Shown here: positions 6,071-26,141 of the stretch, piece after piece | Numbering within the stretch: position 1 is the stretch's first letter | Layout of the letters: every line of letters starts with the position of its first letter | Origin: an uncultured Anaerolineales bacterium | Lineage (GTDB): Bacteria > Chloroflexota > Anaerolineae > B4-G1 | DNA: 26,141 bases | Reading direction: 5' to 3' | NCBI GenBank assembly: GCA_964412395.1 | Contig: CAYPOY010000027.1 | Span: 1 to 26,141, forward strand | Notes under the pieces: generated by a model | Seen by the model: only the letters and a program-made list of their open reading frames with translations | Database searches by the model: none | What the model was told of the DNA's origin: nothing | Program-made: the position numbers and the translations under genes

Positions 6071-6218
6071 CGCCCCACCTCCTAAATCCAGTACCGTTCG
6101 GTTAAGCGGTTCCATTTCCATCGTAGATGGTGGTAGAATACCACCAGACCGACGGAAAGGAGCCGTGCGATGGGAGTTACCTTAGAGAAGATGGTTGTTG
6201 ACACTGGCAATCTTGGCC

Positions 6219-7202: not shown

Positions 7203-7226
7203 ACGCCCTCCGGTGGCTCACCGACC

Positions 7227-8582: not shown

Positions 8583-8607
8583 GCCAGTATCTCCATGCCT
8601 CGTTTCG

Positions 8608-12114: not shown

Positions 12115-12205
12115 AGGTCCCCCACCACGCCATCCCTCGGCTCCACGCACTGAACTTGAAGAGTATCCCAACCTTATCCCGAGTGCAGATGCGCCAAAAT
12201 GGGAT

Positions 12206-12234
12206 TTGCAGCCCCTGACCGCCGATGCTATAAT
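12206..12234 (+). promoter_or_regulatory. Candidate sigma70-type promoter (TTGCAG - 17 bp - TATAAT) for the NTPase-wHTH gene
   Basis: Perfect -10 TATAAT at 12229-12234 and a weak -35 TTGCAG at 12206-12211 with a 17-bp spacer. About 40 nt upstream of the ATG at 12277. Confidence 0.35.
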
Positions 12235-12276
12235 ACCTTTGACCGCCTGTTCTGCAACCTGCCTTTTGGAGCAGCC

Positions 12277-13833: not shown

Positions 13834-13846
13834 CCGGAGGAGGTGA

Positions 13847-16189
13847 ATGAGAATGCCCGATGCAGCCTCGACCGTGGATGCTTCCCCAAAACCTCCTTAC
13901 CGCCTGTCAGCAGGGCCGGGCATCCTGCTCATCGTCGCGACGTTAGTCGTGTGTGGCATCGGATACCTGTCATGGCAGATCCTCGTCGTCCCGTATCAGC
14001 AGGTCGAAGTCACTGATCCAATGCCACTTGGGCCCGTGGTTGATGGCTGCCAGCCCCGGATCCAGGTCGAGTATCCTGTCTGGCTGAGCTTGGACGATCA
14101 AGGTGTACAGCAGGCCAAGCGTATCGTGTTCACACTGGACTGTGACAGGCCGCTCACGCAGATTGTTCCCGTTACCTTTGAAATCACATCCAATCCATCT
14201 GGGTGGATACGCTTTTTCGACGCACAGGGGGAGGACATATCGCCTAACCTGGTGGCTGAGGTGCCCCCTGGTGGTCAGAGCCGCGTGTCCCTGTATCCGG
14301 AATGTCTGAATCGACCAATAACCCCGACTCGTCTGCTCACCCTTACCCTCACTCTGGCTTCTGCCTCAGTAACCGAACCGGCTGCCTCTTTCACCATTGA
14401 ACTGGAATCTTATGTACAAACGTTTCTGCGCCACGTAGTCAGCAGTGCACTAGGGCCGCTTTCGGCCGGGCAGCTGACCCTGCTGGGCTCGCTGGGTGCC
14501 TTCCTCTGGCACTGTTGGAAGACGTGGAACGAAAAACAGCGGGAATTCAGCAGCCTGTATGAGAAGATGCGCAAAAATAAGGGCGATCTTGCAGCCCTGC
14601 GTGAACTGTACTCCCGCTACCAGGGACTTCAGGGGGTCTTTCCTTTCAACATCATTAATCGGGATCCCCGTATTGAGAATCTGCTCTGCACTGTCGAGGC
14701 CGAGGAACGTGTGCGTTGTGTGGTTGAGAGCCTGGAGAAGAACGATTTTGAGACAGCGCGCGAGTGGGATTGCCGCTTGTTCGCATGTGACCGCACGCAC
14801 TGGGCCATTCCTGTGCTGGGGTGCCTCGTCAATCTGCTGGCTGATGACTCCGCCCCAGACCCCCAAAAGTGCCTGGAGCAACTGCGTAGGGGGTGGGACA
14901 AGGCCGAGCCCAGGTTGCGCTGTCATATGGTCAGGGCGCTCTCTCGCATCCCTCTCGCTGGGGCTCACAAGTTTCTGAGGGAGAAAGAGGGTGATCCAGA
15001 CCTGGGCGTGCGTATCGAGATCGCCTGGGCTTTCTCCAGAGTGAAGCGCCCTCCAGATTTGGATGAGCGCTTGCGGCGGCTTGTAACCGCATCGTTGGAC
15101 GAGTGGCTCCACACGCTGGGGGAGCCTCTGGAGGTTCGCGATCCGTTCGGAGAAGCCATTGCCGAAAGTGCTTACCTCGTCGCCGAACCTTTCATCTGGG
15201 AGCATCCCCTGTACGAGCAGTTGTACATACCGGTAGCAATGGCTGTGCTCGCTCCGGCCGGCGGCGGCAAGACCACGGCTCGTCTGGCGCTCCAGCGCCG
15301 TTTCTGGGGTACTACGGACGCTTTCATGCTGGAATACACTGATTTCCACCTTATGATTGGCCGCCCTTCTCGGATCGCGGCTCGCCATCACGCGGCGGCG
15401 ATCCTCCATTGTGCAGCACAGGCGGTATCGGGCCTTTTGCTGGATGATCCTCGAAGGCTGGCCTCTGTCCATGGTCACCGGGAACGACGGCTGATCCATA
15501 GTCTGCTGGTGAACCACCTTTCTGATCTCCACCTTGCTAGACAGTTGGATGTTACTTTGCAGGAGATCTTACCGTCGCCGGATGAAGAATGGCACAGCCT
15601 GCTGTCCGGGCGGCTGCCGGCCGAGGCTATGCGCGACCTGGTGACCATCGTGCGGGCACTCGGCTTCGGTGAACTATACCTCCTGGTGGACAGGCTGAAC
15701 AATATGCCAGAGACACGGGACCTAGCTGTGGCCGAGGCGCTGTTGTGCCACCTGCTGAACGACCCTGCTTTCTTGGACGTGCCGCACCTGCACCTCAAAC
15801 TGTTCCTGCCGACTGAGTGGGAAGAGTTCGTGGTCGGCTGTGGTGGCCTGCGCAGCGGGCGCGTGTACCTGCGACGATTGGAATGGGACGAAAAATCGCT
15901 CTCGAAGATACTCAGAGAGCGTCTCCAGGTCACCGGCGTGGAGAGCCTGAACCGTTTGGCTGTGGATAACATCTACCCGTCGGATCTGGACGCGGCATTG
16001 GCACGCGAGGCGCATGACTCGCCGCGCCGTCTGGTTGAACTGGGAGAGACCCTTTTGCGCCTGAGAGCGCTGGGCTGGGAAGAGGCTGACCGTGACCCAT
16101 CAAAAGCCCGCCTGCAAACTGAGGATTGGGCTGCGATGCTGGAGTATGGCCTGCGCAGAGCTGCCGAAAGAAAGGTTGCTGCCGGGTAA
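13847..16189 (+). CDS. Membrane-anchored protein with HEAT-like repeats and a C-terminal P-loop NTPase module paralogous to that of 12277..13833
   Basis: 780 aa. N-terminal TM 'GILLIVATLVVCGIGYLSWQILVV'. HEAT/PBS-lyase-like 'RCHMVRALSRIPLAGAHKFLREKEGDPDLGVRIEIAWAFSRVK'. Walker A 'VLAPAGGGKTTARL'. Walker-B region 'ELYLLVDRLNNMPETRDLAVAEALLCHLLNDPAFLDVPHLHLKLFLPTEW' aligns with 'ALYFLIDGLDELRMTASDPAAVAGLVAPLLAELPLMELPHTAFKFFLPAEA' of the upstream gene. Shared C-terminal 'SPRRL(V/L)xLGxxL' motif. SD GGAGGAGGTGA immediately upstream. The stop of the upstream gene is 14 nt before the start, which suggests an operon. Confidence 0.7.
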   Translation: MRMPDAASTVDASPKPPYRLSAGPGILLIVATLVVCGIGYLSWQILVVPYQQVEVTDPMPLGPVVDGCQPRIQVEYPVWLSLDDQGVQQAKRIVFTLDCDRPLTQIVPVTFEITSNPSGWIRFFDAQGEDISPNLVAEVPPGGQSRVSLYPECLNRPITPTRLLTLTLTLASASVTEPAASFTIELESYVQTFLRHVVSSALGPLSAGQLTLLGSLGAFLWHCWKTWNEKQREFSSLYEKMRKNKGDLAALRELYSRYQGLQGVFPFNIINRDPRIENLLCTVEAEERVRCVVESLEKNDFETAREWDCRLFACDRTHWAIPVLGCLVNLLADDSAPDPQKCLEQLRRGWDKAEPRLRCHMVRALSRIPLAGAHKFLREKEGDPDLGVRIEIAWAFSRVKRPPDLDERLRRLVTASLDEWLHTLGEPLEVRDPFGEAIAESAYLVAEPFIWEHPLYEQLYIPVAMAVLAPAGGGKTTARLALQRRFWGTTDAFMLEYTDFHLMIGRPSRIAARHHAAAILHCAAQAVSGLLLDDPRRLASVHGHRERRLIHSLLVNHLSDLHLARQLDVTLQEILPSPDEEWHSLLSGRLPAEAMRDLVTIVRALGFGELYLLVDRLNNMPETRDLAVAEALLCHLLNDPAFLDVPHLHLKLFLPTEWEEFVVGCGGLRSGRVYLRRLEWDEKSLSKILRERLQVTGVESLNRLAVDNIYPSDLDAALAREAHDSPRRLVELGETLLRLRALGWEEADRDPSKARLQTEDWAAMLEYGLRRAAERKVAAG

Positions 16190-16347: not shown

Positions 16348-17823
16348 ATGAACCCGATCATCGTTCCTGGTGTACCGGCACTGGGTTCTTATTCATTTCC
16401 TTATGACTCAGATAAGTTCGCTGCACGTTCCGGTGAGATTGAGTTAGTCTCTAAGAAAGTCTCTACTCGACAGATTGAAGGAGACCACCGTATCACTCGT
16501 CCTCTCGTCGAGTTCTACAGCGTGTTGGGCCAGGGCAAATCCTGGCTGCTCGCTCACCTGCGCGATAAATTCCGCCGCGCCCCCCAGGCGGTTTCCTCTT
16601 CATCCCTATACCGTCCTTCTCTTAGCGCGCTGATAGACCTGCGGACTTTCCCTGATCGGGAACATTCTCTCGCGCTCCTTCAGGCCCTGGCCAGCCAACT
16701 CCGCGAGCAACTTGATGAAGCAACAGCGGGTGAGTTGCCGATTCTCTCATCGGGTGAGCGCGTTGAGGCCACGGCCGAGGCGCTGGGTAAATACCTGCGC
16801 GGCCTGGGTGGATCACGGGTTCCCGTGCTGCTTTTTGATACTGCCGACCAGGCAGATGAGGAGTTCCTGGACTGGATCGAAAACCATCTGATCTACCAGG
16901 CTATCCGCGACGACAGCGTTGTCTTCGTCTTAGCCGGCCGCACACGCCTGCGCTGGAAAAAGTTCGAGGTGCGCCGGCGCGTGGAACCGGGAGAACTTCC
17001 CCCCTTCGACCGGCCCCAAACAGGCGAGCAGATAGAGCGGCTGAGGGGCGAGGAGCCGCCCGACGGGGTCACTACCGCGCTGTGGAATTATTCCTTCGGA
17101 CATCCCCTCACCACGCGGGTGATCTACGACACACTCTGCCGGTTGAGCCCTGATGCTCCGCTGGATGCCGTAGAGACGCGGGAGACGGATGTCGCGCAGG
17201 AAGTGTATGGCCTGATCGAAAATCATTTTTTGAGCGTCGTGGCACAGTCGGAGTTGCGAGAACTGATATGGGATACCTGCGTGTTGCGCAAGTTCAACGT
17301 CGCGCACCTGCGCACATTCGCCGGCGATGAAGGTGCCACGCGTTCGGAGGCTTCTTACCTCAATGTCATCCGCCACCTGGTCGCCAGTACGCTGGTGCGC
17401 TGGAGTTCCGAGGATGGCGGATACGTGCTCGATCCGGTAGTGCGTCAGATTTTGGCGCGCAATCTGCAGATGCGGGAGCCAGGGCAATACCTGGGGCAGC
17501 ACATGACGGCAGCCGCGATGTATGAGAGATGGATACAGGAATACCCACGCAACGCGGGGGACTTCCTGATCGAGTGGATGGTTCACCAGAGGGAAGTCTG
17601 GCAAGTGCAAGGGATGCCCGACGACGAGATTGCCTTACAGTTGGCCCAGGCGTTCCAGGAGCGGCTTGATCAACTCACAAAAGAGCCACGGGTACAGTGG
17701 GAGTTACCGGACGTCGCCCGCACGCTGGACGAACGGTTGCTGAGGCGAGAGGATGCGGGCCTGGTGATTGCCCTCAGCGGGTTGCAGAAGGCTGCCCGGC
17801 CGTTTGTTGCCCAGTATGTCTGA
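16348..17823 (+). CDS. Minimal STAND (NB-ARC/NLR-like) P-loop NTPase lacking both an effector domain and C-terminal repeats
   Basis: 491 aa. Walker A 'FYSVLGQGKSWLL'. Walker B 'VLLFDTADQADEEFLDW'. Sensor-1-like 'VFVLAGRTRL'. GxP-like 'NYSFGHPLTTRVIYDTL'. These motifs are collinear with the three downstream STAND proteins. SD 'TAGGAG' upstream of the ATG. Confidence 0.75.
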   Translation: MNPIIVPGVPALGSYSFPYDSDKFAARSGEIELVSKKVSTRQIEGDHRITRPLVEFYSVLGQGKSWLLAHLRDKFRRAPQAVSSSSLYRPSLSALIDLRTFPDREHSLALLQALASQLREQLDEATAGELPILSSGERVEATAEALGKYLRGLGGSRVPVLLFDTADQADEEFLDWIENHLIYQAIRDDSVVFVLAGRTRLRWKKFEVRRRVEPGELPPFDRPQTGEQIERLRGEEPPDGVTTALWNYSFGHPLTTRVIYDTLCRLSPDAPLDAVETRETDVAQEVYGLIENHFLSVVAQSELRELIWDTCVLRKFNVAHLRTFAGDEGATRSEASYLNVIRHLVASTLVRWSSEDGGYVLDPVVRQILARNLQMREPGQYLGQHMTAAAMYERWIQEYPRNAGDFLIEWMVHQREVWQVQGMPDDEIALQLAQAFQERLDQLTKEPRVQWELPDVARTLDERLLRREDAGLVIALSGLQKAARPFVAQYV

Positions 17824-17859
17824 TGCTGGAGAACCTGCCGCATCTGCTCTACCAGCCGA

Positions 17860-17890
17860 CCCATCGCCTCCGGCGGTGGGTTTTTGTTGT
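17860..17890 (+). terminator. Rho-independent terminator: 9-bp stem (cccaucgcc / ggcgguggg, one G-U pair), short loop, then uuuuuguugu
   Basis: Read directly, 37 nt after the stop of 16348..17823. The GC-rich stem is followed by a T5 tract. Confidence 0.65.
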
Positions 17891-17917
17891 AACAAGTGGC
17901 GGAAGTGCTAATTCTGC

Positions 17918-17947
17918 TTGACATATGCCCCTCTTTTGTCGTATAAT
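17918..17947 (+). promoter_or_regulatory. Perfect-consensus sigma70 promoter TTGACA - 18 bp - TATAAT driving the STAND-TPR / SIR2-STAND operon
   Basis: ttgaca at 17918-17923 and tataat at 17942-17947. An AT-rich context in a GC-rich genome. Located between the terminator and the corrected GTG start at 18043, giving a 5' UTR of about 90 nt. Confidence 0.6.
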
Positions 17948-18042
17948 AATGATATGCTGTAACACCTTGCCAGGCGTCGTCAGACTTGACAGAGAGCATA
18001 GTATTCGACGTCAGGCCGCTACTTACTCTCCAGGAGGCTACA

Positions 18043-20937
18043 GTGAGCAAAACCTCGGCCATTGTTCCAAAGACGCGCCGTCTCGTCGGCCGCGAAGCCG
18101 AAGAGCACATCCTGCGCCAGGCCATCGAGGCTGATGGCCTGCGCGTCGTTTATATTACCGGGGAGGCCGGCCTGGGCAAGACCCGCCTGCTGGAATACCT
18201 CCCCGCCATCATTGATACCTGCCGCAACCACGACGAGTGCCTTTGGTGCGGGAACATTGACCTCTACGACCCGGAGAAACACAGCAACAGCGGCATGGAG
18301 GCAGCCATCGCCGGTGCGCTGGATCCCGAGCGGGAGGCATTTGCCACCTACTGGGATGGACGTAAGGAGTTCGAGCGCCAGCGGCGCGCTGGAGCCGATC
18401 TGTACACTCTGGAAAAACTGCGTAAGGGCCTGATCGAGAAATTCGTGGAGGACCTTAACGACGTCGGCCGGGAGAAGCGCGTCGTCGTCGCCCTGGATAC
18501 CGTCGAACTCATCCAGTACGAGAGTGACATCGTACAACAGGTGTGCGGCATTGAGCCACAGGGCATCGAGGTGCGCGAGTGGCTGACGCTGAACCTGCCT
18601 CGTTTAGAGAACGCCGTCTTCGTCCTGGCCGGCCGGCCCAGGCCTGAACTGGCGGAAGACCTGCAAAAGACATTCGGCGAACAACTGATTGAGATTCAAC
18701 TGCGGCCGTGGCCTGAGGAGGAGCAGACCCTGGCCTACTTCGCTGCCGTGGAGGAGGAGGAACTCCCTGCCGCCCGACGGAGTGCGCTGAGTGAGATGTC
18801 TGAGGACTGGCGGCGGATGGTGCATCACTACACTGGCGGACACCCGCTCAAGGTGACACTTACCATCGAATTGCTGCTGATGAATCTGCCGCTGCCACCG
18901 GTCTTCAGCGAACCCCCGCCGGCCGATATCCAAGAGCGAATGAAGAAGGAGTTGGTCGAGGGACTGATGGAAGCGGGAGATGAGCCAGCGACCGCGCTGC
19001 GCTACATGGCGGTGGCCCGCAAGGGGATGGATGCTGCGCTGTTGCACCACCTGTTGGGCGACGAGTGGCCAGAGCAGCGCTGCCAGCGCGTGCTGCAGGA
19101 CTTGCGGCCCTGGTCCTTTGTCAAAACACGACCAGGCACTGACCTTTTGTTCCTGCACGACGAGATGTACGATCTACTGGAGCGATACGCCCCGGTGCCC
19201 GACCGTTACCAGGCGGCCACGCGCATTGCCGATGCCTACGAGGAACACATCAGCGAACTACTGGCGGATGACACCAAAAGGCAGCGGCAGGTACTGCAGG
19301 TGGAGCAACTGTACTACAAATTGCTGGCAAACCGAACAGCCGGGTACGCCGGCTACACCCGGCAGGCGGCCGAAGCCATCTTCACTCACGAGGCCGGCTT
19401 CGACATGTCATTGCGTGACGAGATGTTGCGCTTCTTCAAAGACCACGGTTCGCCGGTCATCTGGCAGCGCATCAACCGCGACAGCGCCGCGCTGTGGGTC
19501 GAACGATATAACGCTATGGGCCTCCACGAGCGAGCCTACCGGGTGGCCGCCGACGTCCTGGCCAGCGACCACTCTGACTTCCGGGGCGGGCGTGATGACC
19601 CGTTATTCATGGCCGCGCTACTCTCGGGACAGGGCACCGCGCTGGCGATACAAGGCAGGAGACTGGATGAGGCGGCACAGTTGTTGCAGTACGCCATTGC
19701 CAGACTGGAGCCTGTCTCCATTCCCGGCGAAGAACGGAACCGGGCGCGCATCCTGGGAAGTGCATACAACACGCTGGGATACGTCTGTTTCGTGCAGAAG
19801 AGGTACGACGCGGCCATCGGGTCGTACGCGAGGGCACTGCCCCACCTACGGCAGGTGGAACTTGGGGCTCACCTGGCCGACGCCGAAAAGAATCTGGCCC
19901 GCACCTACAGCCTGATGGGCCGGCATCGCGAAGCGGTGGTACTGTGTGATGACAGCATTGAACTGTTCCGTCAAGCCAACAATCGCTACGGTGAGGCCTA
20001 CGGCCTGAATGTGCTGGGGCAGATCCGCACCGACATGGAGCACTTCTACCGGGGCTACATCCACTCCCGCGCCGCGCTGCGCATCTTTCGCCAGTTGGAG
20101 CACGGGCGCGGCATCGGTCTGGCGCTCCACGCCCTGGGCGAGGCGACCCGCAAGCGGGCCACCTTCGAGGAGTACACGCTCGGCGAGGCGGAGGAACTGT
20201 TCCACGAAGCGGAAAAGTACCTGGAGGAAGTACCGGAATATCTGATCGAACCGCTGCGGCTGGCCTACGCCCGCAACGAACTGGGGTGTGTCTACCGGGA
20301 CTGGGCCATCGTTCGCCAGCGACACAACAGGGACTTTGCTGAACTCGTAGAGCAGGCCAGGAAGCATCTCCTGGAGGCCGCAGACGTTGCCGGAGACACG
20401 CCGGAGTGGCACACTCACGAGGCCGACTGTTACGAGGACCTGGCCCAGGTAGAGTTCATTCGTGGCCCGGAGGGGTATGCGGAGGCGCTGAAGTGGCTGG
20501 ATAAGGCGGAGGGCAGTATTGAGCCACAATATCGAATCACGGCACGGGGGCTTCCCAGGATTGAGGAGCCGGTGCAGGGCTACTGGGTTATGTTGGGCAA
20601 GATCGAACTGCTGCGCGGGCACGTCGCTTTCGCCACAGGTCAGGAGAAAGAGAATGTAAATCAGAATCCGGATCCTGACTACCAGGAAGCGATCCGGCAC
20701 TATGTCCTTGCCACTTCTTACTTTGAAGCCTTCTCACCGAAAGCGCACGAGTTGAATACGACGCTGGACAGTATGTACGACCGGCTGCGTAAACTCTTGG
20801 CCCACCAGTTGGCCTACTTGCGCAAACACGCCGAGGGCGTTGCCGGGGACTACAATCTCGACGCAACTCGTTTCCTGGACATGTTCGATAGTACCCTGGG
20901 GGCCATCTCGTTGCTCAGCCGAGAGGAGACATTATGA
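18043..20937 (+). CDS. STAND NTPase (NB-ARC-like) with C-terminal TPR repeats and no N-terminal effector domain
   Basis: Start corrected to the GTG at 18043, with a perfect SD 'AGGAGG' 5-6 nt upstream. The ORF-track TTG at 17986 has none, and the N-terminus then aligns with paralog 23589. Walker A 'VVYITGEAGLGKTRLLEYLP'. Walker B 'VVVALDTVELIQYESD'. 'VFVLAGRPRPELAEDL'. GxP 'HYTGGHPLKVTLTIELL'. C-terminal TPR-type repeats ('AYNTLGYVCFVQKRYDAAIGSYARAL', 'AEKNLARTYSLMGRHREAVVLCDDSIELF', 'AYGLNVLGQIRTDMEHFYRGYIHSRAALRIF'). Confidence 0.85.
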   Translation: MSKTSAIVPKTRRLVGREAEEHILRQAIEADGLRVVYITGEAGLGKTRLLEYLPAIIDTCRNHDECLWCGNIDLYDPEKHSNSGMEAAIAGALDPEREAFATYWDGRKEFERQRRAGADLYTLEKLRKGLIEKFVEDLNDVGREKRVVVALDTVELIQYESDIVQQVCGIEPQGIEVREWLTLNLPRLENAVFVLAGRPRPELAEDLQKTFGEQLIEIQLRPWPEEEQTLAYFAAVEEEELPAARRSALSEMSEDWRRMVHHYTGGHPLKVTLTIELLLMNLPLPPVFSEPPPADIQERMKKELVEGLMEAGDEPATALRYMAVARKGMDAALLHHLLGDEWPEQRCQRVLQDLRPWSFVKTRPGTDLLFLHDEMYDLLERYAPVPDRYQAATRIADAYEEHISELLADDTKRQRQVLQVEQLYYKLLANRTAGYAGYTRQAAEAIFTHEAGFDMSLRDEMLRFFKDHGSPVIWQRINRDSAALWVERYNAMGLHERAYRVAADVLASDHSDFRGGRDDPLFMAALLSGQGTALAIQGRRLDEAAQLLQYAIARLEPVSIPGEERNRARILGSAYNTLGYVCFVQKRYDAAIGSYARALPHLRQVELGAHLADAEKNLARTYSLMGRHREAVVLCDDSIELFRQANNRYGEAYGLNVLGQIRTDMEHFYRGYIHSRAALRIFRQLEHGRGIGLALHALGEATRKRATFEEYTLGEAEELFHEAEKYLEEVPEYLIEPLRLAYARNELGCVYRDWAIVRQRHNRDFAELVEQARKHLLEAADVAGDTPEWHTHEADCYEDLAQVEFIRGPEGYAEALKWLDKAEGSIEPQYRITARGLPRIEEPVQGYWVMLGKIELLRGHVAFATGQEKENVNQNPDPDYQEAIRHYVLATSYFEAFSPKAHELNTTLDSMYDRLRKLLAHQLAYLRKHAEGVAGDYNLDATRFLDMFDSTLGAISLLSREETL

Positions 20938-21122
20938 AACCTGCTAGCAGTGGCAAGATTGAGACCAGTGCCTCCTATTCATCTCAAGCGCTCTCGCTGT
21001 TCCAAGTGGAGGGTATGCCAGCGTCCCAACCCCCTGTCGTTGAACTTATGGCGGAGGGCGATGACTGCAAATATCCGGCAAGACCGGAGCGCACGCTGGA
21101 TACGCAATGTGGCGACTGTTGA
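20934..21122 (+). CDS. Hypothetical 62-aa protein, translationally coupled (ATGA overlap) to the upstream STAND-TPR gene
   Basis: The ATG at 20934 overlaps the TGA stop at 20935-20937. SD 'GAGAGGAGA' 4 nt upstream. It ends 19 nt before the GTG start of the SIR2-STAND gene. It contains 3 Cys, has no recognisable domain, and no homolog could be checked. Confidence 0.35.
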   Translation: MKPASSGKIETSASYSSQALSLFQVEGMPASQPPVVELMAEGDDCKYPARPERTLDTQCGDC

Positions 21123-21141: not shown

Positions 21142-23592
21142 GTGGATCTCCTCACTATCATCGGCATTTCAGCAGCCATCGTCGGAATCATTGCCGGCGT
21201 TGTACAGGTGCTGGACTATCTGCAAAAGCGACGAGCGACCGCCCAACAGCGGAGAGCCACGCCCATAACCTCAGCGGCACCCCTGGAGACCACCTCCGAC
21301 CAGACCGTGCTCTCCACTGTTCAACCCGAGGGACCGCCCATGGGCAATGCTGTTTCCACCGAAGCAACTGTCTCCGTTGTCCCAACCCGGCATCCTCTCG
21401 CTATCCCTGCTGCCGTTGAAGATCCCGTGCCGGATGAGCCAGGGCAAGATATCGAATCTATCCTGCAACGCATCGAGCAACTGGACCAGTATACCAACGA
21501 AGTCCTGGCCCAGATTGCACACGATGTACGGGAGGGCAAATGCGTCTTCCTGATTGGGGCAGGGTGCTCGGTTCAGGCCGGGATGCCCAGCGGCCGTCAG
21601 TTGACCCGCTTGCTCAAGGAACATGCCCGCTGGTCGTGTGAGAGCAGCCGATTGCCTGATGTAGCACAAACCTACGTGGATCAGAGGCGCCGTGGCGACC
21701 TGGAGGCGATCATCTACCGTGCACTTAAGGATAGAGAAAGGGCCAGGGGCTCCCCCACTATCAGGCCGACGTTTGCTCATCAAGCCTTAGCGCGCATTGT
21801 CTCTCTGTCACCTCACATGATGGCCATTCTGACCACCAACTGGGATAGGCTCCTGGAGCAGGCACTGGATGAGGAGCCCGTGGCCTACACGACGGTGGCG
21901 TCGGACCAGGCTGTGGCGAGCGCCGACTCGAAGCGCCTCAGAGTGATCAAACTGCACGGCGATGTCGAATCACGAGAATATACCATCGCCCGTGAGGACT
22001 TTGCCCATTATGCCGCTAACCACCCACGCCTGGTGGAACTCTGGAAGGAGTGTCTGCGTAACTGTACCCTGGTGGTCGTTGGATATGGGTTGGAGGACCG
22101 GAGTTTCCTGGATGTCTACCACATGGTATTGGATACACTGGGAGGCAAAGACGCCGCCAGACCCTTTTACGTCGTCTTGCCCTACACCCACCGCGAAAAG
22201 AGGCGGCACTGGCGGGAGAGGATGGGCGTCAGTGAGTTCATTGACCTGGACGCGGACACTTTTACTGTGGCCCTCTACTGCCAGATCAACGTCTTCGCCA
22301 ACCGGCAAGGTGAACTTGACCTGGTTTATCGCTTGCTGCAGGCGCTGGATGTGGATGGCCGGTCCAAAAGGATCGTCGAATTCTACGGCGTCCCCGGCAT
22401 CGGCAAGACCAGCCTGTTAGAGCGTGTTCGGGACAAACCCGATACCATACCTGCAACGCTCATTCGCCTGGGCGAGCAGTGTTTTCAAGGCCAGGTTGCT
22501 CGTCAGGCTATCCTGGCCCAGATGTCCACCGATCTGGCCATTGGCGAGACTGGAGACGAGGAAATCTTTGTGCGTCGTCTGTCCCCCTATCAGGCGATCC
22601 TCCTGTTTGATGCGACCGATCAGGCTGACGAGCAGACCTTGAGATGGCTTGGCGACTTGCTTTGCCGACTTCCCAGGGCATTCGCGATCTTTGCTGGCCG
22701 CCGGCCGTTATTGCATACCTGCTGGCGTGGGTCAGCAGCGCTGACGAGAGAACTCGCTCGCCCGCGCAGGCTTGGTCCCTTTGCTGTGGCCGATGCCAGG
22801 CAACAGATCGAACGCGAGTTATTCTGGGATCGTGCTCTGGCCGAGTACCTGTACGACCTCACGGGGGGGCATCCGGGCATCATCCGCGAGGCCCTCCAGT
22901 GGTTGAAGGACCAGCGCACCTCCCCCGGCTGGTCAGCGACGCTCCGTGACGAGCGGCAGATGGGACTGCTGCTGGAGGAATGGATAGACCGGTGCATCCT
23001 GGACAGTGTGGAACCGGATCTCGGGTCTATCATCAAACAAGTGGCGGCCCTACGGTCCTTCTCACCCGGCGACCTGCGTCTAATCTTGCCCGATGCACAG
23101 GGACAGCCAGTGGGGTACTTTGACAGGCTGATCAAGGAGCGGCTGGTACCCAGCGGGCTCGTTGACTGGCAGGGGCTGAAAGTGTACCGGCTGGATCCAA
23201 CTGTGCAACGGCTAGTCCTGCATAGCGTCAGGCTCAAGTCTCCCCAACAGTTTGCAGAAGTGTGCCGACGGATTCGACGACTGTATGACACGTATGTCGA
23301 AAGTCACCCTGAGCGTTGCGGTCAGTTTGTGGTGGAGAAACTATATCACCTGGCCTCTGAGGGCTACGCCCTGGAGTGGTCAAATGATGACCTGAGGGCC
23401 GCTCTGCTTCGTGCGCTTGAAGCCGACCTGGCCCGCGCAGATGAGGCGAGTGTGGCCGAGGACGTGCGAGAAGTGCTTGAGAACGACGTTGAGTTGCAGG
23501 AACTTATGCCGGAGGTCTACCCTGACTTGCTCCGGTCAGCCAGGCAAATGTCTGAACAACTTGTATCAGGCCAATTGGAGGTAGGCCCGTGA
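21142..23592 (+). CDS. Membrane-anchored SIR2-STAND fusion: N-terminal TM helix + Pro/Thr/Ser-rich linker + SIR2-like (DHS-like NAD-binding, SIR2_2-type) domain + STAND NTPase + helical domain, with no C-terminal repeat sensor
   Basis: GTG start with 'GGGAG' 5 nt upstream. TM 'LLTIIGISAAIVGIIAGVVQVL'. SIR2_2 motifs 'CVFLIGAGCSVQAGMPSGRQLTRLL', 'ILTTNWDRLLEQAL' (catalytic Asn), 'RVIKLHGDVESREY' (catalytic His), 'CTLVVVGYGLEDRSFLDV'. STAND Walker A 'VEFYGVPGIGKTSLLERV', Walker B 'ILLFDATDQADEQTLRWL', 'FAIFAGRRPL', GxP 'DLTGGHPGIIREALQWL'. Confidence 0.85.
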   Translation: MDLLTIIGISAAIVGIIAGVVQVLDYLQKRRATAQQRRATPITSAAPLETTSDQTVLSTVQPEGPPMGNAVSTEATVSVVPTRHPLAIPAAVEDPVPDEPGQDIESILQRIEQLDQYTNEVLAQIAHDVREGKCVFLIGAGCSVQAGMPSGRQLTRLLKEHARWSCESSRLPDVAQTYVDQRRRGDLEAIIYRALKDRERARGSPTIRPTFAHQALARIVSLSPHMMAILTTNWDRLLEQALDEEPVAYTTVASDQAVASADSKRLRVIKLHGDVESREYTIAREDFAHYAANHPRLVELWKECLRNCTLVVVGYGLEDRSFLDVYHMVLDTLGGKDAARPFYVVLPYTHREKRRHWRERMGVSEFIDLDADTFTVALYCQINVFANRQGELDLVYRLLQALDVDGRSKRIVEFYGVPGIGKTSLLERVRDKPDTIPATLIRLGEQCFQGQVARQAILAQMSTDLAIGETGDEEIFVRRLSPYQAILLFDATDQADEQTLRWLGDLLCRLPRAFAIFAGRRPLLHTCWRGSAALTRELARPRRLGPFAVADARQQIERELFWDRALAEYLYDLTGGHPGIIREALQWLKDQRTSPGWSATLRDERQMGLLLEEWIDRCILDSVEPDLGSIIKQVAALRSFSPGDLRLILPDAQGQPVGYFDRLIKERLVPSGLVDWQGLKVYRLDPTVQRLVLHSVRLKSPQQFAEVCRRIRRLYDTYVESHPERCGQFVVEKLYHLASEGYALEWSNDDLRAALLRALEADLARADEASVAEDVREVLENDVELQELMPEVYPDLLRSARQMSEQLVSGQLEVGP

Positions 23593-26117
23593 TCGAACTT
23601 GCTGTCTTCCCGGGTGCCTTACGTACCAGCAGGCTGGTCGGTCGTGCGGAGGAACTGACCGCGATCCAGTCTGCAATTGAGGCCGAGGGCACGCTGCGCG
23701 TGCTGCATTTCGTCGGTGATGGGGGCATTGGCAAGACGCGCCTGCTGGAGGAGATTCCCAACCTGATCGCGAACTCGGGCAAACCCGATACCTGCCTATG
23801 GGGCGGGATCATAGATCTCTACGACACGGCTACCCATAGCCATGCTGGCATAGAGCGAGTGATTCTGGAAGCACTTGACCCAGCCGGGGAGAAATTTGAG
23901 GGCTGCCGGACCGCAAGAAAAGAGCACGCACGTTTGCGCCGCAGCGGTGCGGAAGCCGAGCGCCTAAACCGCCTTCGTATCCAGTCGTCGGCCCTGTTCG
24001 TCGAAGAGTTCAACCGACTTTCAAATCAAAGACGTGTGGTGCTGGCCTTCGACACTGCGGTGTCCATGCAGTACGAAAGCGACTTGGTGCAGGAAATCTG
24101 CGGGTTGGGCTTCGGTGATCTGGAGGTCCGGTCGTGGCTGCTGGATCAACTGCCGCGTTTACAGAACGCCATCTTCGTTATTGCCAGCCGGCCCCAACCA
24201 CGCCTGGTGCGAGACGTGAAAGAACGTTTTGGACGAGAACCGTACCTGCTTGGACCGTTCAGCGAGGATGAGACAATTGACTACTTTGACGCTCTGGCCG
24301 AACTGACGGAGGTCGGCAGCGTTGACCTGGAAACTCGGCGTGTGATCCATCGCTATTCGGAGGGCTGGCCGCTTCTGTTATCTCTCATCATTGAGGTGAT
24401 GGTCAGCGCGGCCCCCTGGCTTGAAGAGTTCAACGCCCCTCTGCACGAGTTGGAGGCCAAGAGCGAGGAGGAACTGGCATCAGTGCGCAGAATCTTCGAG
24501 CAACGGCTGGTTGACAACATCCAGAGGCTGAGCAGTGACGTGGCAATTGCTCTCCCTTTCTTGGCGTGGGCACGGCGAGGGATGAATGCAGAATTGCTGG
24601 CGCGACTGACAGGATGGTCTGCGAAAGAATGTCGGCACGTGTTGGCCGAACTGAAGCGCTTCTCTTTCGTCAAGACTCCGGCTGGGACTGAACGGGTCTT
24701 CCTGCACGATGCTGTATATGACTTGATGGACCGCCATGTGCTACAATATCTGGTCTCGGACAGAGAGCGGGTCTGCGAGGAGACCGTCCGATACTATGAC
24801 GAGCATATTGAGAAAAGAGCGAAGAGAGCAAAAACAGGTGCGGAAGTGGCCGCGCTTATGGCAGAGCGTCTCTATTATCGGCTGCTGGTTGATCCCAGGA
24901 GCGGTTACGCTGAATATAGCCGCCTGGCAGACGAAGCCATCTTCCGGAACGAAGTTGGTCTGGACATGGCACTCCGCGATGAGGTATTGCGTTTCTTCAA
25001 TGTCGAAAGGAATCCCATATTTGCCGTGCAGTCCCAGCGTTACTATCGCCTGACCCAACAGCGGCTTGACCCCGACAGCGCCATTCGCTGGGTGAGACGC
25101 TACGTGGCGCGGGGGCAGTATGCCCGGGCGGTGGATGTGGCGCGCAGGATACGTTCTGTTGACCATCCCCATTTCCGCGCTGCCGGGCCTTTCTTCGAGC
25201 CTTCCCTTGCCATTGATGAAGGTACGGCTCTGGTGCGGCTCGGTCGGGACGTATCTGATGCTATAGAGATGCTTAAGGGTGCTGTCGCGCGTCTTGAAGA
25301 GATTAGCCCAACTGACGAATACAAGATTTGGAGCCGTGACCAGTGTCTTGGCAACGCCTGCAATACCCTGGGGTATGCCTACAAGATGCAGAAGAAATAT
25401 GACGCTGCTGTCAGGTGGTATCAGAGGGCATTACCCTACCTTCGCCGGGCCAGACTTGAGGCCCACTACGTCGATGCAGGAAAGAACCTTAGCCGGGTGT
25501 ACGGGCTACTGGGAAGATTTACAGAAGCGGTAACGCTGTGCGAAGACAGTCTGCGGATTTTCAGCGAGACAGGCAACCGGTATGGCGAGGCATATAGCCT
25601 GAACGTGTTGGGACAAATTCGCACAGATATGGGCCACCCCTATCGAGCCTATCTCCGCTCACAGGACGCCCTGCGGCTCTTTCGAAGCCTGGACAATAAG
25701 CGTGGGATTGGTCTGGCATGTACTGCCCTGGGAGAAGCGGCGCGCAAGTGGGCAACCTTCGAGTATCATTCGCTCGAGGAAGCGGAGCAATTGTTCCGTG
25801 AAGCCGAGGGATACTTGAAGGAGGCATTGACCATCTTCCCAGAGCAGGTCGTTGAGCCGCTCAGAGCAATGGCGGCACGCAACGAGTTGGGGTGCGTGTA
25901 TCGTGACTGGGCAGCGGTCTACCGGCGACACGGGCTGGCCCCCGCGTCCCTGGAACAACGGGCAAGGAAACAACTGAATCGCTGCCTCGCGGAAGCCAGT
26001 CCAGAGTGGCGGATGGAACTGGCAGACAACTGCGAAGACCTGGCCGAGGTTGAATCTGCCCGTGGACCAGAAGGGTACGACGAAGCACGGGTCTCCTTGA
26101 ATTGTTGGGAAACTTGA
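23589..26117 (+). CDS. STAND NTPase (NB-ARC-like) with C-terminal TPR repeats, paralog of 18043..20937
   Basis: The GTG start overlaps the upstream stop (GTGA, 23589-23592), and SD 'GGAGGT' is 7 nt upstream. Walker A 'VLHFVGDGGIGKTRLLEEIP'. Walker B 'VVLAFDTAVSMQYESD'. 'IFVIASRPQPRLVRDV'. GxP 'RYSEGWPLLLSLIIEV'. TPRs 'ACNTLGYAYKMQKKYDAAVRWYQRAL', 'AGKNLSRVYGLLGRFTEAVTLCEDSLRIF', 'AYSLNVLGQIRTDMGHPYRAYLRSQDALRLF'. Confidence 0.85.
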   Translation: MIELAVFPGALRTSRLVGRAEELTAIQSAIEAEGTLRVLHFVGDGGIGKTRLLEEIPNLIANSGKPDTCLWGGIIDLYDTATHSHAGIERVILEALDPAGEKFEGCRTARKEHARLRRSGAEAERLNRLRIQSSALFVEEFNRLSNQRRVVLAFDTAVSMQYESDLVQEICGLGFGDLEVRSWLLDQLPRLQNAIFVIASRPQPRLVRDVKERFGREPYLLGPFSEDETIDYFDALAELTEVGSVDLETRRVIHRYSEGWPLLLSLIIEVMVSAAPWLEEFNAPLHELEAKSEEELASVRRIFEQRLVDNIQRLSSDVAIALPFLAWARRGMNAELLARLTGWSAKECRHVLAELKRFSFVKTPAGTERVFLHDAVYDLMDRHVLQYLVSDRERVCEETVRYYDEHIEKRAKRAKTGAEVAALMAERLYYRLLVDPRSGYAEYSRLADEAIFRNEVGLDMALRDEVLRFFNVERNPIFAVQSQRYYRLTQQRLDPDSAIRWVRRYVARGQYARAVDVARRIRSVDHPHFRAAGPFFEPSLAIDEGTALVRLGRDVSDAIEMLKGAVARLEEISPTDEYKIWSRDQCLGNACNTLGYAYKMQKKYDAAVRWYQRALPYLRRARLEAHYVDAGKNLSRVYGLLGRFTEAVTLCEDSLRIFSETGNRYGEAYSLNVLGQIRTDMGHPYRAYLRSQDALRLFRSLDNKRGIGLACTALGEAARKWATFEYHSLEEAEQLFREAEGYLKEALTIFPEQVVEPLRAMAARNELGCVYRDWAAVYRRHGLAPASLEQRARKQLNRCLAEASPEWRMELADNCEDLAEVESARGPEGYDEARVSLNCWET

Positions 26118-26141
26118 CAAAAATGCACCTCCCAGGCAAAG

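What the first reader, a model, noticed from the sequence alone, without database searches (positions are those of the whole stretch)
21142..23592. Membrane-tethered SIR2-STAND with intact catalytic Asn/His but no sensor repeats
The protein starts with a single TM helix. A roughly 80-aa low-complexity Pro/Thr/Ser/Val linker follows, then a SIR2_2-type domain. The catalytic residues are present: 'TTNWD' carries the Asn and 'KLHGD' the His. A full STAND NTPase module comes next. The protein ends after the helical (winged-helix/HD-like) region, with no TPR, WD40 or LRR array. SIR2-STAND fusions are known as Avs5-like, but a membrane anchor plus the absence of a sensor array is an unusual combination. 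It suggests the NADase is pre-positioned at the membrane and activated in trans.
Basis: partly seen in the sequence, partly recalled or inferred. Interest (0 to 1): 0.75.

Follow-up and report, generated by a model that had tools for sequence, protein, structure and literature searches.

The report
Membrane-anchored SIR2 half of STAND pair
This gene encodes a membrane-anchored, NAD-destroying enzyme fused to a molecular switch with no sensor of its own; it always sits next to a second switch protein that has a sensor but no weapon, so the two probably work as a bacterial sensor/executor pair like the paired immune receptors of plants and animals.

Summary

The "in trans" idea is supported and extended. 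The NOD belongs to a large uncharacterised "short STAND" family: about 1,200 representative clusters, mostly ~490-aa proteins with neither effector nor sensor. In all 19 informative loci, a homologue of the window's effector-less STAND-TPR lies directly downstream, often overlapping. Three proteins fuse the two genes. The two families co-diverge (r = 0.80). Other short STANDs carry TIR or nothing. TM-linker-SIR2 recurs in relatives only 32% identical.

The pair sits in a larger conserved cassette: a wHTH ATPase, a HEAT protein, a second short STAND plus STAND-TPR, a small Cys-motif peptide and, in relatives, a radical SAM/SPASM enzyme.

It is not an Avs5 member: it has no sensor and matches no Avs profile. 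The best reading is a prokaryotic sensor/executor STAND pair driving membrane-proximal NAD+ depletion. All of this is computational. The trigger, phage or the cassette's own peptide, is unknown.

The parts
21142..23592 (+). TM-linker-SIR2-shortSTAND gene (816 aa, GTG start)
   Evidence: ORF list. SD-like GGGGAG lies 5 nt upstream. dN/dS is 0.165 against orthologue L001.
21148..21213 (+). N-terminal transmembrane helix (aa 3-24), followed by the juxtamembrane motif VLDYLQKRR
   Evidence: Hydropathy maximum of 2.6, the only TM candidate in the protein. Conserved in P0002, P0077 and P0082. A near-identical anchor occurs on the unrelated NLR-like proteins P0011 and P0012.
21229..21456 (+). Low-complexity Pro/Ala/Thr/Val/Ser linker (aa 30-105)
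   Evidence: Composition. AF2 predicts it as unstructured. Constraint is relaxed, dN/dS 0.58.
21475..22236 (+). SIR2_2-type domain (aa ~112-365) with GAG motif, Asn233 and His272
   Evidence: Pfam SIR2_2, E 3e-22. PADLOC ThsA, Dsr2 and PDC-S65 SIR2 profiles. PDB alignment to DSR2 N133/H171. These residues are invariant in the family.
22294..23241 (+). STAND NOD (aa ~385-700): NBD with Walker A K422, Walker B D490 and sensor-1 R520; helical domain with the GHP (GxP) motif; winged helix
23242..23568 (+). C-terminal six-helix cap (aa 701-809), conserved across the short-STAND family; not a repeat sensor
   Evidence: AF2 helices 327-435 of model m01660dd6f964. Nearly invariant E..YH and D.EL motifs in a 113-sequence alignment. 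dN/dS 0.11.
23589..26117 (+). Cognate partner: effector-less STAND (AAA_16)-TPR gene. Its start overlaps the SIR2-STAND stop by 4 bp. It diverges from its orthologue after about 26087.
   Evidence: Pfam AAA_16 plus TPR. Conserved directly downstream in all homologous loci. End divergence.
20934..21122 (+). Small conserved ORF (62 aa) with an LSLF motif and a C-terminal Cys motif (..DTQCGDC). Its start overlaps the stop of the upstream STAND-TPR (ATGA).
   Evidence: dN/dS 0.15 against L001. Homologues follow STAND-TPR genes in L001, L048, L051 and L053.
17986..20937 (+). Second effector-less STAND-TPR (983 aa), 46% identical to the downstream partner; by conserved gene order, the partner of the 491-aa short STAND
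16348..17823 (+). Standalone short STAND (491 aa): paralogue of aa 385-736 of the SIR2 protein, with no effector and no sensor
   Evidence: BLASTP 26% identity, E 1e-19. Typical member of the ~1,200-cluster family.
12199..16189 (+). Two upstream conserved cassette genes: a P-loop ATPase with a C-terminal OmpR-type wHTH (12199..13833) and a HEAT-repeat protein (13847..16189)
   Evidence: Pfam and NCBIfam. Conserved upstream of short STANDs in L052, L053, L055, L056, L058 and L066.
17858..17947 (+). Terminator-like hairpin (17858-17882), then a 12/12 sigma-70 consensus (17918-17947) ahead of the STAND-TPR / peptide / SIR2-STAND / STAND-TPR run
   Evidence: Pattern scan only.

Best explanation
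The gene encodes the executor half of a two-protein STAND (NLR-like) pair.

Shown by sequence and structure prediction:
- A single N-terminal TM helix, N-out/C-in, and a flexible linker of about 80 aa hold a cytoplasmic SIR2 domain at the membrane. The SIR2 is of the ThsA/DSR2 type and has an intact Asn/His catalytic pair.
- The SIR2 is fused to a complete nucleotide-binding oligomerisation module (NBD-HD-WHD plus a 6-helix cap) that has no ligand-sensing repeats.

Shown by comparative genomics:
- This 'short STAND' module is always encoded immediately upstream of an effector-less STAND-TPR protein.
- The two genes are sometimes fused into one polypeptide.
- The two families co-diverge.

Inferred:
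- The STAND-TPR partner (23589..) is the sensor.
- Ligand binding to its TPR arm opens its NOD, which then nucleates or templates hetero-oligomerisation with the short-STAND NOD.
- That brings the N-terminal SIR2 domains together. SIR2 NADases of this type are active only as oligomers or filaments.
- The result is NAD+ depletion next to the membrane, with growth arrest or death of the cell (abortive infection or programmed cell death).
- The TM anchor pre-concentrates the executor in two dimensions. Clustered TM helices may add membrane damage.

The ligand is unknown. It could be a phage protein, or the small Cys-motif peptide encoded in the same cassette, which is presumably matured by the associated radical SAM/SPASM enzyme.
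For: - Domain anatomy.
- Pairing: a homologous effector-less STAND-TPR lies directly downstream, often overlapping, in L001/L002, L003, L004, L005/L006, L007, L013 and L047 (SIR2-type). The same holds in L047b, L048-50, L051-55, L058 and L061-64 (standalone type). In this window the overlap is 4 bp.
- Rosetta-stone fusions: P0122, P0144 and the 1,475-aa ORF of L065 are short STAND plus STAND-TPR in one chain.
- Mirror tree over 14 pairs: r = 0.80, Mantel p <= 2e-4.
- Effector modularity lies on the short STAND, not on the TPR protein: SIR2 (window, P0002, P0004/6/8, P0077, P0082, P0135), TIR+EAD7 (P0052), TIR (P0137), or none (most members).
- The partner NOD starts at aa 15-32, so the partner carries no effector.
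- TM-linker-SIR2 is retained at 32% identity in P0077 and P0082.
- All parts are under purifying selection.
- Precedents: EfAvs5 SIR2 is activated only on assembly, and deleting its sensor abolishes function (PMC11897194). NAIP/NLRC4 and plant sensor/helper NLR pairs are described in PMC9975940 (abstract).
Against: - No experiment exists. No complex model could be computed, because the tool predicts single chains only.
- BLASTP similarity between the two NODs is limited to the P-loop. Homology shows only at profile level.
- Most short STANDs carry no effector at all, so the primary role of the pair may not be to deploy a fused effector.
- The partner's TPR region is as conserved as its NOD (dN/dS 0.09-0.15). 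It shows no arms-race signature.
- The conserved association with a Cys-motif peptide, a radical SAM/SPASM enzyme and a wHTH ATPase fits a signalling or regulatory cassette as well as a phage sensor.
- In this window the partner gene departs from its orthologue about 30 nt before a premature stop, at the window edge. It may be truncated here.
- The TM call rests on hydropathy and conservation only.
Confidence: 0.6

Rival explanations
1. The cassette is a self-signal (peptide) sensing or regulatory system rather than phage defence. The small Cys-motif peptide is matured by the radical SAM/SPASM enzyme, with a GNAT in some loci. The STAND-TPR binds that peptide, as TPR receptors of the RRNPP type bind signalling peptides. 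The usual output is transcriptional, through the wHTH ATPase. In some lineages SIR2- or TIR-bearing short STANDs add a dormancy or cell-death output, for example for kin or filament control in multicellular Chloroflexota.
For: - The conserved order is wHTH-ATPase / HEAT / short STAND / STAND-TPR / peptide / (GNAT) / rSAM-SPASM across divergent loci.
- The peptide is under purifying selection, dN/dS 0.15.
- The DCAC-type motif is fused to the rSAM N-terminus in L004, L007, L013 and L058.
- TPR regions are conserved, not diversifying.
- Most short STANDs have no effector.
- Kaur et al. 2020 proposed that processed peptides coupled to AP-ATPase-TPR proteins act 'as a peptide toxin or signal' (PMC7159879).
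Against: - No rSAM gene lies within this window.
- SIR2_2/ThsA/DSR2-type and TIR domains are hallmark abortive-infection effectors.
- The wHTH ATPase is a distant relative of a protein of the validated anti-phage system DS-41: NF053860 at 197 bits, below its 370 cut-off.
- The neighbourhood is full of conflict-system genes: KAP NTPase-FGE-sulfatase, SPFH.
- Peptide binding by the TPR is pure conjecture.
Confidence: 0.2
2. The protein is an autonomous single-chain Avs5-like sensor-effector. The C-terminal six-helix cap, or the NOD itself, is a minimal sensor, and the neighbouring STAND-TPR genes are independent defence genes that merely cluster in an island.
For: - The order SIR2-NOD-C-terminal domain and the overall length (816 aa, against an 833-residue EfAvs5 chain in 9jap) resemble Avs5.
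- The window is rich in unrelated STAND/KAP NTPases.
Against: - Adjacency with the same partner family holds in 19 of 19 informative loci. There are also gene fusions and co-divergence.
- The cap is about 110 aa, highly conserved across about 1,200 clusters, and is also present in effector-less members. That is atypical for a sensor.
- No PADLOC Avs profile matches.
Confidence: 0.08
3. The SIR2 domain is not a bulk NADase. It acts as a protein-modifying enzyme (ADP-ribosyltransferase or deacylase) or as a signal-nucleotide generator, working on a membrane-proximal target. The TM anchor serves substrate proximity rather than pre-positioning for NAD+ depletion.
For: - Weak hits to classical Sir2 deacylase models (NF001755, E 2e-4).
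- The anchor is retained in relatives only 32% identical, which suggests that location matters.
Against: - The best matches by far are to NADase-type defence sirtuins: DSR2, ThsA, KomC, and PADLOC ThsA/Dsr2.
- Hits to deacylases are far below their cut-offs.
Confidence: 0.07

Closest known systems
Avs5 / AVAST type 5 (e.g. EfAvs5, PDB 9JAP)
   Same: N-terminal SIR2 NADase-type domain fused to a STAND NOD. Similar overall length. SIR2 expected to be switched on by NOD-driven assembly.
   Different: - Avs5 is a single-gene system with an essential C-terminal sensor (PMC11897194). Here there is no sensor, only a conserved 110-aa helical cap.
- There is an obligately linked effector-less STAND-TPR gene.
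- There is an N-terminal TM anchor.
CED-4 (C. elegans), a sensor-less STAND
   Different: CED-4 carries a CARD and is held by CED-9, which is not a STAND. Here the N-terminus is TM plus SIR2, and the trans partner is itself a STAND-TPR.
Paired or networked NLRs: NAIP-NLRC4, plant sensor/helper NLRs (NRC network)
   Same: Sensing and execution are divided between two NOD-containing proteins. The genes are tightly linked. The executor is activated in trans.
   Different: - Eukaryotic helpers keep their LRRs. Here the executor has lost, or never had, repeats, and the sensor has no N-terminal domain at all.
- Hetero-oligomerisation here is inferred only.
- Different NOD clades, with no evidence of common descent of the pairing.
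Two-gene STAND operon with GT4/HEPN effectors predicted by Kaur, Iyer, Burroughs & Aravind 2021 (PMC8195603, section 15)
   Same: A mobile bacterial operon encoding two STAND proteins predicted to form a hetero-multimer, with variable effectors fused to one of them.
   Different: - That family is Dap3/RNA12/CR-ATPase-like, and the effector-bearing STAND there is catalytically eroded.
- Here both NODs keep Walker A/B, the clade is AP-ATPase/AAA_16-like, the effectors are SIR2 or TIR, and a peptide/rSAM module is attached.
Defence sirtuins DSR2, ThsA, KomC
   Same: The SIR2 domain is homologous (E 1e-8 to 1e-12) with aligned catalytic Asn/His.
   Different: Those use other sensor and assembly modules (the DSR2 C-terminal domain; SLOG in ThsA). 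None is fused to a STAND NOD or a TM anchor.
Archaeal short Walker-type ATPases PAB2304 (2QEN) and SSO1545 (2FNA)
   Different: About 350 aa, with no C-terminal cap, no effector, and unknown function and partners.

Membership tests
SIR2_2 / defence-type sirtuin NADases (ThsA, DSR2) | Match to the SIR2_2 profile above the curated threshold | tested here: met
   PF13289, E 3.4e-22, 79.5 bits against a cut-off of 24.5.
SIR2_2 / defence-type sirtuin NADases (ThsA, DSR2) | Catalytic Asn and His, and the GAG NAD-binding motif, in aligned positions | tested here: met
   N233 aligns with DSR2 N133 and H272 with DSR2 H171 in the phmmer alignment. G139-A140-G141, N233 and H272 are invariant in the family.
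SIR2_2 / defence-type sirtuin NADases (ThsA, DSR2) | NAD+ hydrolysis activity | not testable with these tools
   Needs a biochemical assay.
STAND NTPases | Walker A, Walker B, sensor-1 Arg and the GxP motif in the helical domain | tested here: met
   GVPGIGKT (416-423), LLFD490, AGR520 and GHP578. hhalign to the neighbouring STAND NOD gives 97.3% probability.
STAND NTPases | NBD-HD-WHD fold | tested here: met
STAND NTPases | C-terminal repeat or sensor domain (typical, not universal) | tested here: not met
   No TPR, WD40, LRR or HEAT Pfam hit. The model shows only six helices after the WHD.
Avs5 (AVAST type 5) | N-terminal SIR2 fused to a STAND NOD | tested here: met
Avs5 (AVAST type 5) | Essential C-terminal sensor domain in the same chain | tested here: not met
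   Absent. In EfAvs5, deleting the sensor abolishes defence (PMC11897194).
Avs5 (AVAST type 5) | Sequence match to Avs profiles of a defence-system library | tested here: not met
   The 24 PADLOC hits are all SIR2-only models (ThsA, Dsr1/2, PDC-S65, pAgo-SIR2, LmuA). None is an Avs model.
Avs5 (AVAST type 5) | Functions as a single-gene system | not testable with these tools
   Context argues against it: the partner gene is linked in 19 of 19 loci.
Sensor/helper (paired) NLR systems | Two NOD proteins, one carrying the sensor and the other the executing domain | tested here: met
   SIR2-shortSTAND has no sensor. The STAND-TPR has no N-terminal domain, its NOD starting at aa 15-32.
Sensor/helper (paired) NLR systems | Stable genetic linkage and co-evolution of the two genes | tested here: met
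   Adjacency in all informative loci. Fusions. Mirror tree r = 0.80, p <= 2e-4.
Sensor/helper (paired) NLR systems | Sensor-dependent oligomerisation and activation of the executor | not testable with these tools
   Needs complex modelling or biochemistry.
Single-pass membrane-anchored protein | One hydrophobic helix of about 20 residues with flanking charge asymmetry | tested here: met
   aa 3-24, Kyte-Doolittle 2.6, with KRR on the C-terminal side. Conserved in P0002, P0077 and P0082, with a conserved juxtamembrane L-D-[YW]-[LW]-x-[KR]-R-[RK] motif. No TMHMM-type predictor was available, and membrane insertion was not tested.

The most novel reading that the evidence does not exclude
This is a prokaryotic sensor/helper NLR pair whose sensor, the STAND-TPR, reads a self-made, radical-SAM-matured Cys-motif peptide or its perturbation during infection. 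The sensor then templates polymerisation of a membrane-tethered, sensor-less SIR2 executor. The clustered N-terminal TM helices carry an AxxxGxxxG glycine-zipper-like motif and occur as a portable anchor on other NLR-like proteins. They would co-assemble in the membrane, so the complex would act like a resistosome that both depletes NAD+ and damages the membrane. The ~1,200-cluster short-STAND family would then be a general 'helper NOD' layer of bacterial immunity or cell-death control that has gone unnoticed.
Probability: 0.15. Interest if true: 0.9.

Novelty: new variant of a known kind. Interest (0 to 1): 0.7.

Why it matters
Characterised bacterial STAND/Avs immune proteins are single chains that sense, oligomerise and execute by themselves. 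Division of labour between a sensor NLR and a helper or executor NLR is regarded as a feature of plant and animal immunity.

A large, conserved bacterial family would give a tractable prokaryotic model for NLR-pair activation. In it, a sensor-less NOD carrying SIR2, TIR or nothing is obligately linked to an effector-less NOD-TPR. That would bear on how such pairs originate.

The recurrent TM anchor poses the question of why an NAD+-depleting enzyme must sit at the membrane.

The linkage to a Cys-motif peptide and a radical SAM/SPASM enzyme points to an unexplored connection between RiPP-like peptide chemistry and NLR-type signalling in filamentous bacteria.

Tried and rejected
- The full-length AF2 run with the 5-sequence alignment gave a poor model (pLDDT 50.7). 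I used it only for secondary structure of the TM and linker. Modelling aa 375-816 with a 113-sequence alignment worked.
- BLASTP between the short-STAND NOD and the partner NOD showed only P-loop similarity. Profile-profile comparison was needed.
- Two word-index homologue searches returned few relatives (12 and 16 proteins). The family size emerged only from the exhaustive HMM search.
- The search for related loci with the 113-sequence alignment failed because it had no conserved stretch. A 14-sequence alignment worked.
- I looked for a radical SAM gene in the window. None of the larger ORFs scanned is one.
- I looked for DGR-type template/variable repeats near the two KAP-FGE-sulfatase genes. 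The only direct repeats are the paralogous gene bodies themselves.
- I rejected iSTAND (inactive STAND) as a label. The Pfam iSTAND profile hit only P0020, weakly, and the window protein keeps intact Walker motifs.
- I rejected amyloid-motif signalling between the neighbours, because no shared short terminal motif was visible on reading the termini of the neighbouring proteins (by inspection; no search was run).
- Term searches of the 2026 STAND survey (PMC13581612) and the Aravind-lab papers found no description of this pair. Their supplementary tables were not examined.
Full report
**1. What is at 21142..23592**

The ORF is real: 816 aa, GTG start, with a GGGGAG Shine-Dalgarno-like motif 5 nt upstream.

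I compared it codon by codon with a 78%-identical orthologue from an independent metagenome (P0002, locus L001). dN/dS was 0.10 for SIR2, 0.16 for NBD-HD, 0.15 for the WH, 0.11 for the C-terminal cap, 0.37 for the first 30 codons and 0.58 for the linker. Every part is translated and constrained, the linker least.

- **TM helix.** Residues 3-24 (LLTIIGISAAIVGIIAGVVQVL) are the only strongly hydrophobic segment, with a Kyte-Doolittle mean of 2.6. KRR follows, so the bulk of the protein should be cytoplasmic.
- **Linker.** Residues 30-110 are Pro/Ala/Thr/Val/Ser-rich and predicted unstructured.
- **SIR2.** Residues ~112-365 match Pfam SIR2_2 at E 3e-22 and the SIR2 parts of the PADLOC ThsA, Dsr2 and PDC-S65 profiles. 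They align with solved DSR2, ThsA and KomC structures. Asn233 (TTNWD) falls on DSR2 N133 and His272 (KLHGD) on DSR2 H171.
- **STAND module.** Residues ~385-700 carry Walker A GVPGIGKT, Walker B LLFD490, AGR520 and the GHP (GxP) motif.

**2. Is it a STAND, and is there really no sensor?**

The first AF2 run, on the full length with 5 sequences, was poor (pLDDT 50.7). Residues 375-816 modelled with a 113-sequence alignment gave pLDDT 91.0 and pTM 0.89.

The model has a five-stranded P-loop NBD, a helical domain, and a winged helix with its beta-hairpin. Six helices follow (protein aa 701-809).
- Foldseek finds the PH0952-type STAND-TPR 6mfv, MalT, RPP1, Avs3, CED-4 and ZAR1.

No repeat family is detected. 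The C-terminal cap is about 110 aa and carries nearly invariant motifs across the family. It is not a variable sensor.

**3. The NOD is a member of a large family of sensor-less 'short STANDs'**

The window itself contains a 491-aa paralogue at 16348..17823. It corresponds to residues 385-736 of the SIR2 protein (26% identity, E 1e-19) and has neither effector nor sensor.

I searched a profile of the two paralogues against 1.84 billion representative proteins. It found 1,210 proteins at E <= 1e-3 and 133 at E <= 1e-30. Most of the listed hits are 450-520 aa, that is, the NOD plus cap alone.

The exceptions are informative:
- SIR2 + short STAND: P0077, P0082, P0135.
- TIR + EAD7 + short STAND: P0052.
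- TIR + short STAND: P0137.
- Two short STANDs in tandem: P0020, P0024.
- Short STAND fused to a complete AAA_16-TPR STAND: P0122 (1,574 aa), P0144 (1,541 aa).

No Pfam model above its gathering score (only weak AAA_22), and no NCBIfam or PADLOC model, describes the standalone 491-aa member.

**4. The pairing**

A homologue of the window's effector-less STAND-TPR proteins follows the short-STAND gene in every locus that has enough downstream DNA. The two genes frequently overlap.
- SIR2-type loci: L001/L002, L003, L004, L005/L006, L007 (Anaerolineales MAG), L013 (Anaerolineae MAG) and L047.
- Standalone-type loci: the second cassette of L047, L048-L050, L051-L055, L058 and L061-L064.

That is 7 of 7 and 12 of 12 distinct informative loci.

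In the window, the SIR2-STAND stop overlaps the start of the downstream STAND-TPR (23589..26117) by 4 bp. That partner's NOD begins at residue ~15, so it has no effector.

P0122, P0144 and a 1,475-aa ORF in L065 are fusions of the two genes in the same order. Their C-terminal parts match the window's STAND-TPRs at E 1e-84 to 1e-116.

Pairwise identities of 14 short STANDs and of their 14 partners correlate (r = 0.80, Mantel p <= 2e-4). The two NODs are homologous at profile level (97.3% probability, E 2e-11 from the P-loop to the GxP motif). Both keep Walker motifs.

By conserved gene order, the cognate partner of the SIR2 protein is the downstream gene. The upstream STAND-TPR (17986..20937, 46% identical to the downstream one) belongs to the 491-aa short STAND.

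**5. The membrane anchor is recurrent**

P0002 (78% identity) keeps it. So do P0077 and P0082, which are only ~32% identical overall. Each has a TM helix, a basic juxtamembrane motif (LDYLQKRR / LDWWQRRKR / IDWLERRRR), a low-complexity linker, and then SIR2.

Other family members lack it (P0004, P0006, P0008, P0135). They carry a soluble helical N-terminus or none.

L007 encodes a separate four-TM protein immediately upstream instead.

A nearly identical anchor (MDTLTVIGIIAAIVGIIAGIVQVLDYLQKRRE) heads two single-chain DUF4062-NB-ARC-TPR proteins, P0011 and P0012. The anchor therefore behaves as a portable module on NLR-like proteins of these organisms. Its AxxxGxxxG spacing is glycine-zipper-like, but that pattern is confined to the closest relatives. 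I treat it as a lead only.

**6. The larger cassette**

Upstream of standalone short STANDs, divergent loci repeat two genes. One is a P-loop ATPase with a C-terminal OmpR-type wHTH (window 12199..13833). The other is a HEAT protein (13847..16189).

Downstream of the STAND-TPR comes a small ORF with an LSLF motif and a C-terminal Cys motif:
- window 20934..21122: ..DTQCGDC
- L001: ..QCSDCACE and ..DDQCGCN
- L048: ..DCACVSDSNCACE
- L051: ..DSQCTCN
- L053: ..DQDCACE

Its start overlaps the STAND-TPR stop, and its dN/dS is 0.15.

A radical SAM/SPASM enzyme follows in L004, L007, L013, L048, L051, L053 and L058, sometimes after a GNAT. It resembles generic peptide maturases, and no curated family reaches threshold. 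In L004, L007, L013 and L058 the DCAC motif sits at the N-terminus of the rSAM protein itself.

L051 is a 72-77%-identical relative of the window's first cassette. There the rSAM gene directly follows the peptide. So in the window's lineage the module [TM-SIR2-shortSTAND + STAND-TPR2 (+ second peptide, seen in L001)] appears to have been inserted or duplicated between peptide and rSAM.

A terminator-like hairpin (17858-17882) and a perfect sigma-70 consensus (17918-17947) precede the translationally coupled run STAND-TPR / peptide / SIR2-STAND / STAND-TPR. These are pattern matches only.

**7. Mechanism**

*Shown:* the domain content, the catalytic residues, the absence of a sensor, and the linkage, fusion and co-divergence with a sensor-only STAND.

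*Established elsewhere:* EfAvs5 shows NADase activity only in its filament-bundle form and needs its own C-terminal sensor; that paper describes SIR2 acting as a monomer in SIR2-APAZ/Ago and as higher-order assemblies in DSR2, SIR2-HerA and Thoeris (PMC11897194). Sensor and helper NLRs cooperate in plants and animals (PMC9975940 abstract).

*Inferred:* the STAND-TPR senses the trigger. Its opened NOD nucleates co-assembly with the short-STAND NOD. The tethered SIR2 domains are brought together and deplete NAD+ at the membrane.

I put this at about 0.6. The main uncertainty is the trigger and the biological role. Three observations keep a self-signal or regulatory reading alive (about 0.2):
- Most short STANDs have no effector.
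- The TPR regions are not fast-evolving (dN/dS 0.09-0.15).
- The peptide, rSAM and wHTH components are conserved.

Kaur et al. 2020 already proposed that processed peptides coupled to AP-ATPase-TPR proteins act as toxin or signal. An autonomous Avs5-like reading is unlikely (about 0.08).

**8. Comparison with the known**

It works like a SIR2-STAND such as Avs5, but it fails Avs5 membership: no sensor and no Avs profile match, and its NOD is structurally much closer to other STANDs than to EfAvs5.

Architecturally, the executor resembles CED-4, a NOD plus helical domain with no repeats that is regulated in trans. The pair resembles NAIP/NLRC4 or plant sensor/helper NLRs.

The only prokaryotic precedent I found for a two-STAND operon is a different family with GT4/HEPN effectors on an inactive STAND, predicted by Kaur et al. 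2021. In the term searches I ran, the 2026 survey of 589 STAND clades does not mention paired STANDs. Its supplementary tables were not examined, so prior cataloguing of these clades cannot be excluded.

**9. Caveats**
- Everything here is computational.
- The TM call has no dedicated predictor behind it.
- In this window the partner gene departs from its L001 orthologue at ~26087 and stops at 26117, 24 nt from the window end. That could be real truncation or a contig-end artefact.
- The source organism is not identified. All informative relatives with taxonomy are Chloroflexota (Anaerolineae) MAGs.

**Verdict:** Interest 0.7.

Noticed in passing
window 20934..21122 (+); L001 64..261 and 5126..5326; L048 5120..5344; L051 ~5712..5915; L053 ~9704..9904: A small ORF of about 62-74 aa follows the STAND-TPR genes. 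It has an LSLF-type motif and a C-terminal Cys motif (QCGDC, DCACE, QCTCN). It is under purifying selection (dN/dS 0.15) and looks like a RiPP-type precursor. In other loci the same DCAC motif sits at the N-terminus of the associated radical SAM/SPASM enzyme (MGDCAC...).
   Followed up: partly
L004 5817..6815; L007 ~6660..7652; L013 6222..7238; L051 5922..7160; L053 10434..11657; L058 13070..14446: A radical SAM/SPASM enzyme is a recurrent third or last gene of the cassette. It matches no curated NCBIfam family above threshold. No such gene lies inside the window, which may end before it.
   Followed up: partly
window 903..3368 (-) and 3485..6121 (-): Two paralogous KAP-family P-loop NTPase + FGE-sulfatase proteins, with DNA segments 71-79% identical. 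This architecture is known as a sensor type, often diversified by DGRs in multicellular bacteria. No reverse transcriptase or template repeat was found in the window.
   Followed up: partly
window 6219..10092 (-): A TPR protein (327 aa) followed by two SPFH/Band-7 proteins (451 and 494 aa), with a 349-aa protein at 10168..11217 that has no family match. This may be another membrane-associated conflict module.
   Followed up: no
window 12199..13833 (+): A P-loop ATPase with a C-terminal OmpR/PhoB-type DNA-binding domain. It hits NCBIfam NF053860 'DS41_1 anti-phage protein' at 197 bits, below the 370 cut-off. DS-41 is a validated system of the DefensePredictor study. The gene is conserved upstream of short-STAND cassettes.
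   Followed up: partly
P0011, P0012 (N-terminal 31 aa), compared with window 21142..21234: A near-identical TM anchor plus juxtamembrane motif sits on otherwise unrelated single-chain DUF4062-NB-ARC-TPR proteins. The anchor seems to be a shuffled module among NLR-like proteins. It has AxxxGxxxG glycine-zipper-like spacing.
   Followed up: partly
L003 5661..7346: Directly upstream of, and overlapping, a SIR2-shortSTAND gene lies a caspase (Peptidase_C14) + SIR2 protein. Its SIR2 has the catalytic His replaced (KLRRD), so it may be an inactive SIR2 serving as an adaptor to recruit a protease.
   Followed up: no
window ~26087..26141: The downstream STAND-TPR diverges completely from its L001 orthologue about 30 nt before a stop at 26117, and lacks the last ~150 aa. 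This is either a truncation or rearrangement, or an artefact at the end of the contig.
   Followed up: partly
window 17858..17947: A strong terminator-like hairpin (11-bp stem) is followed by a 12/12 match to the sigma-70 consensus. They lie between the 491-aa short STAND and its STAND-TPR, which suggests the two genes of the first pair are transcribed separately here.
   Followed up: no
P0020, P0024: These proteins consist of two short-STAND modules in tandem (932-960 aa). That hints that short STANDs can also pair with each other.
   Followed up: no
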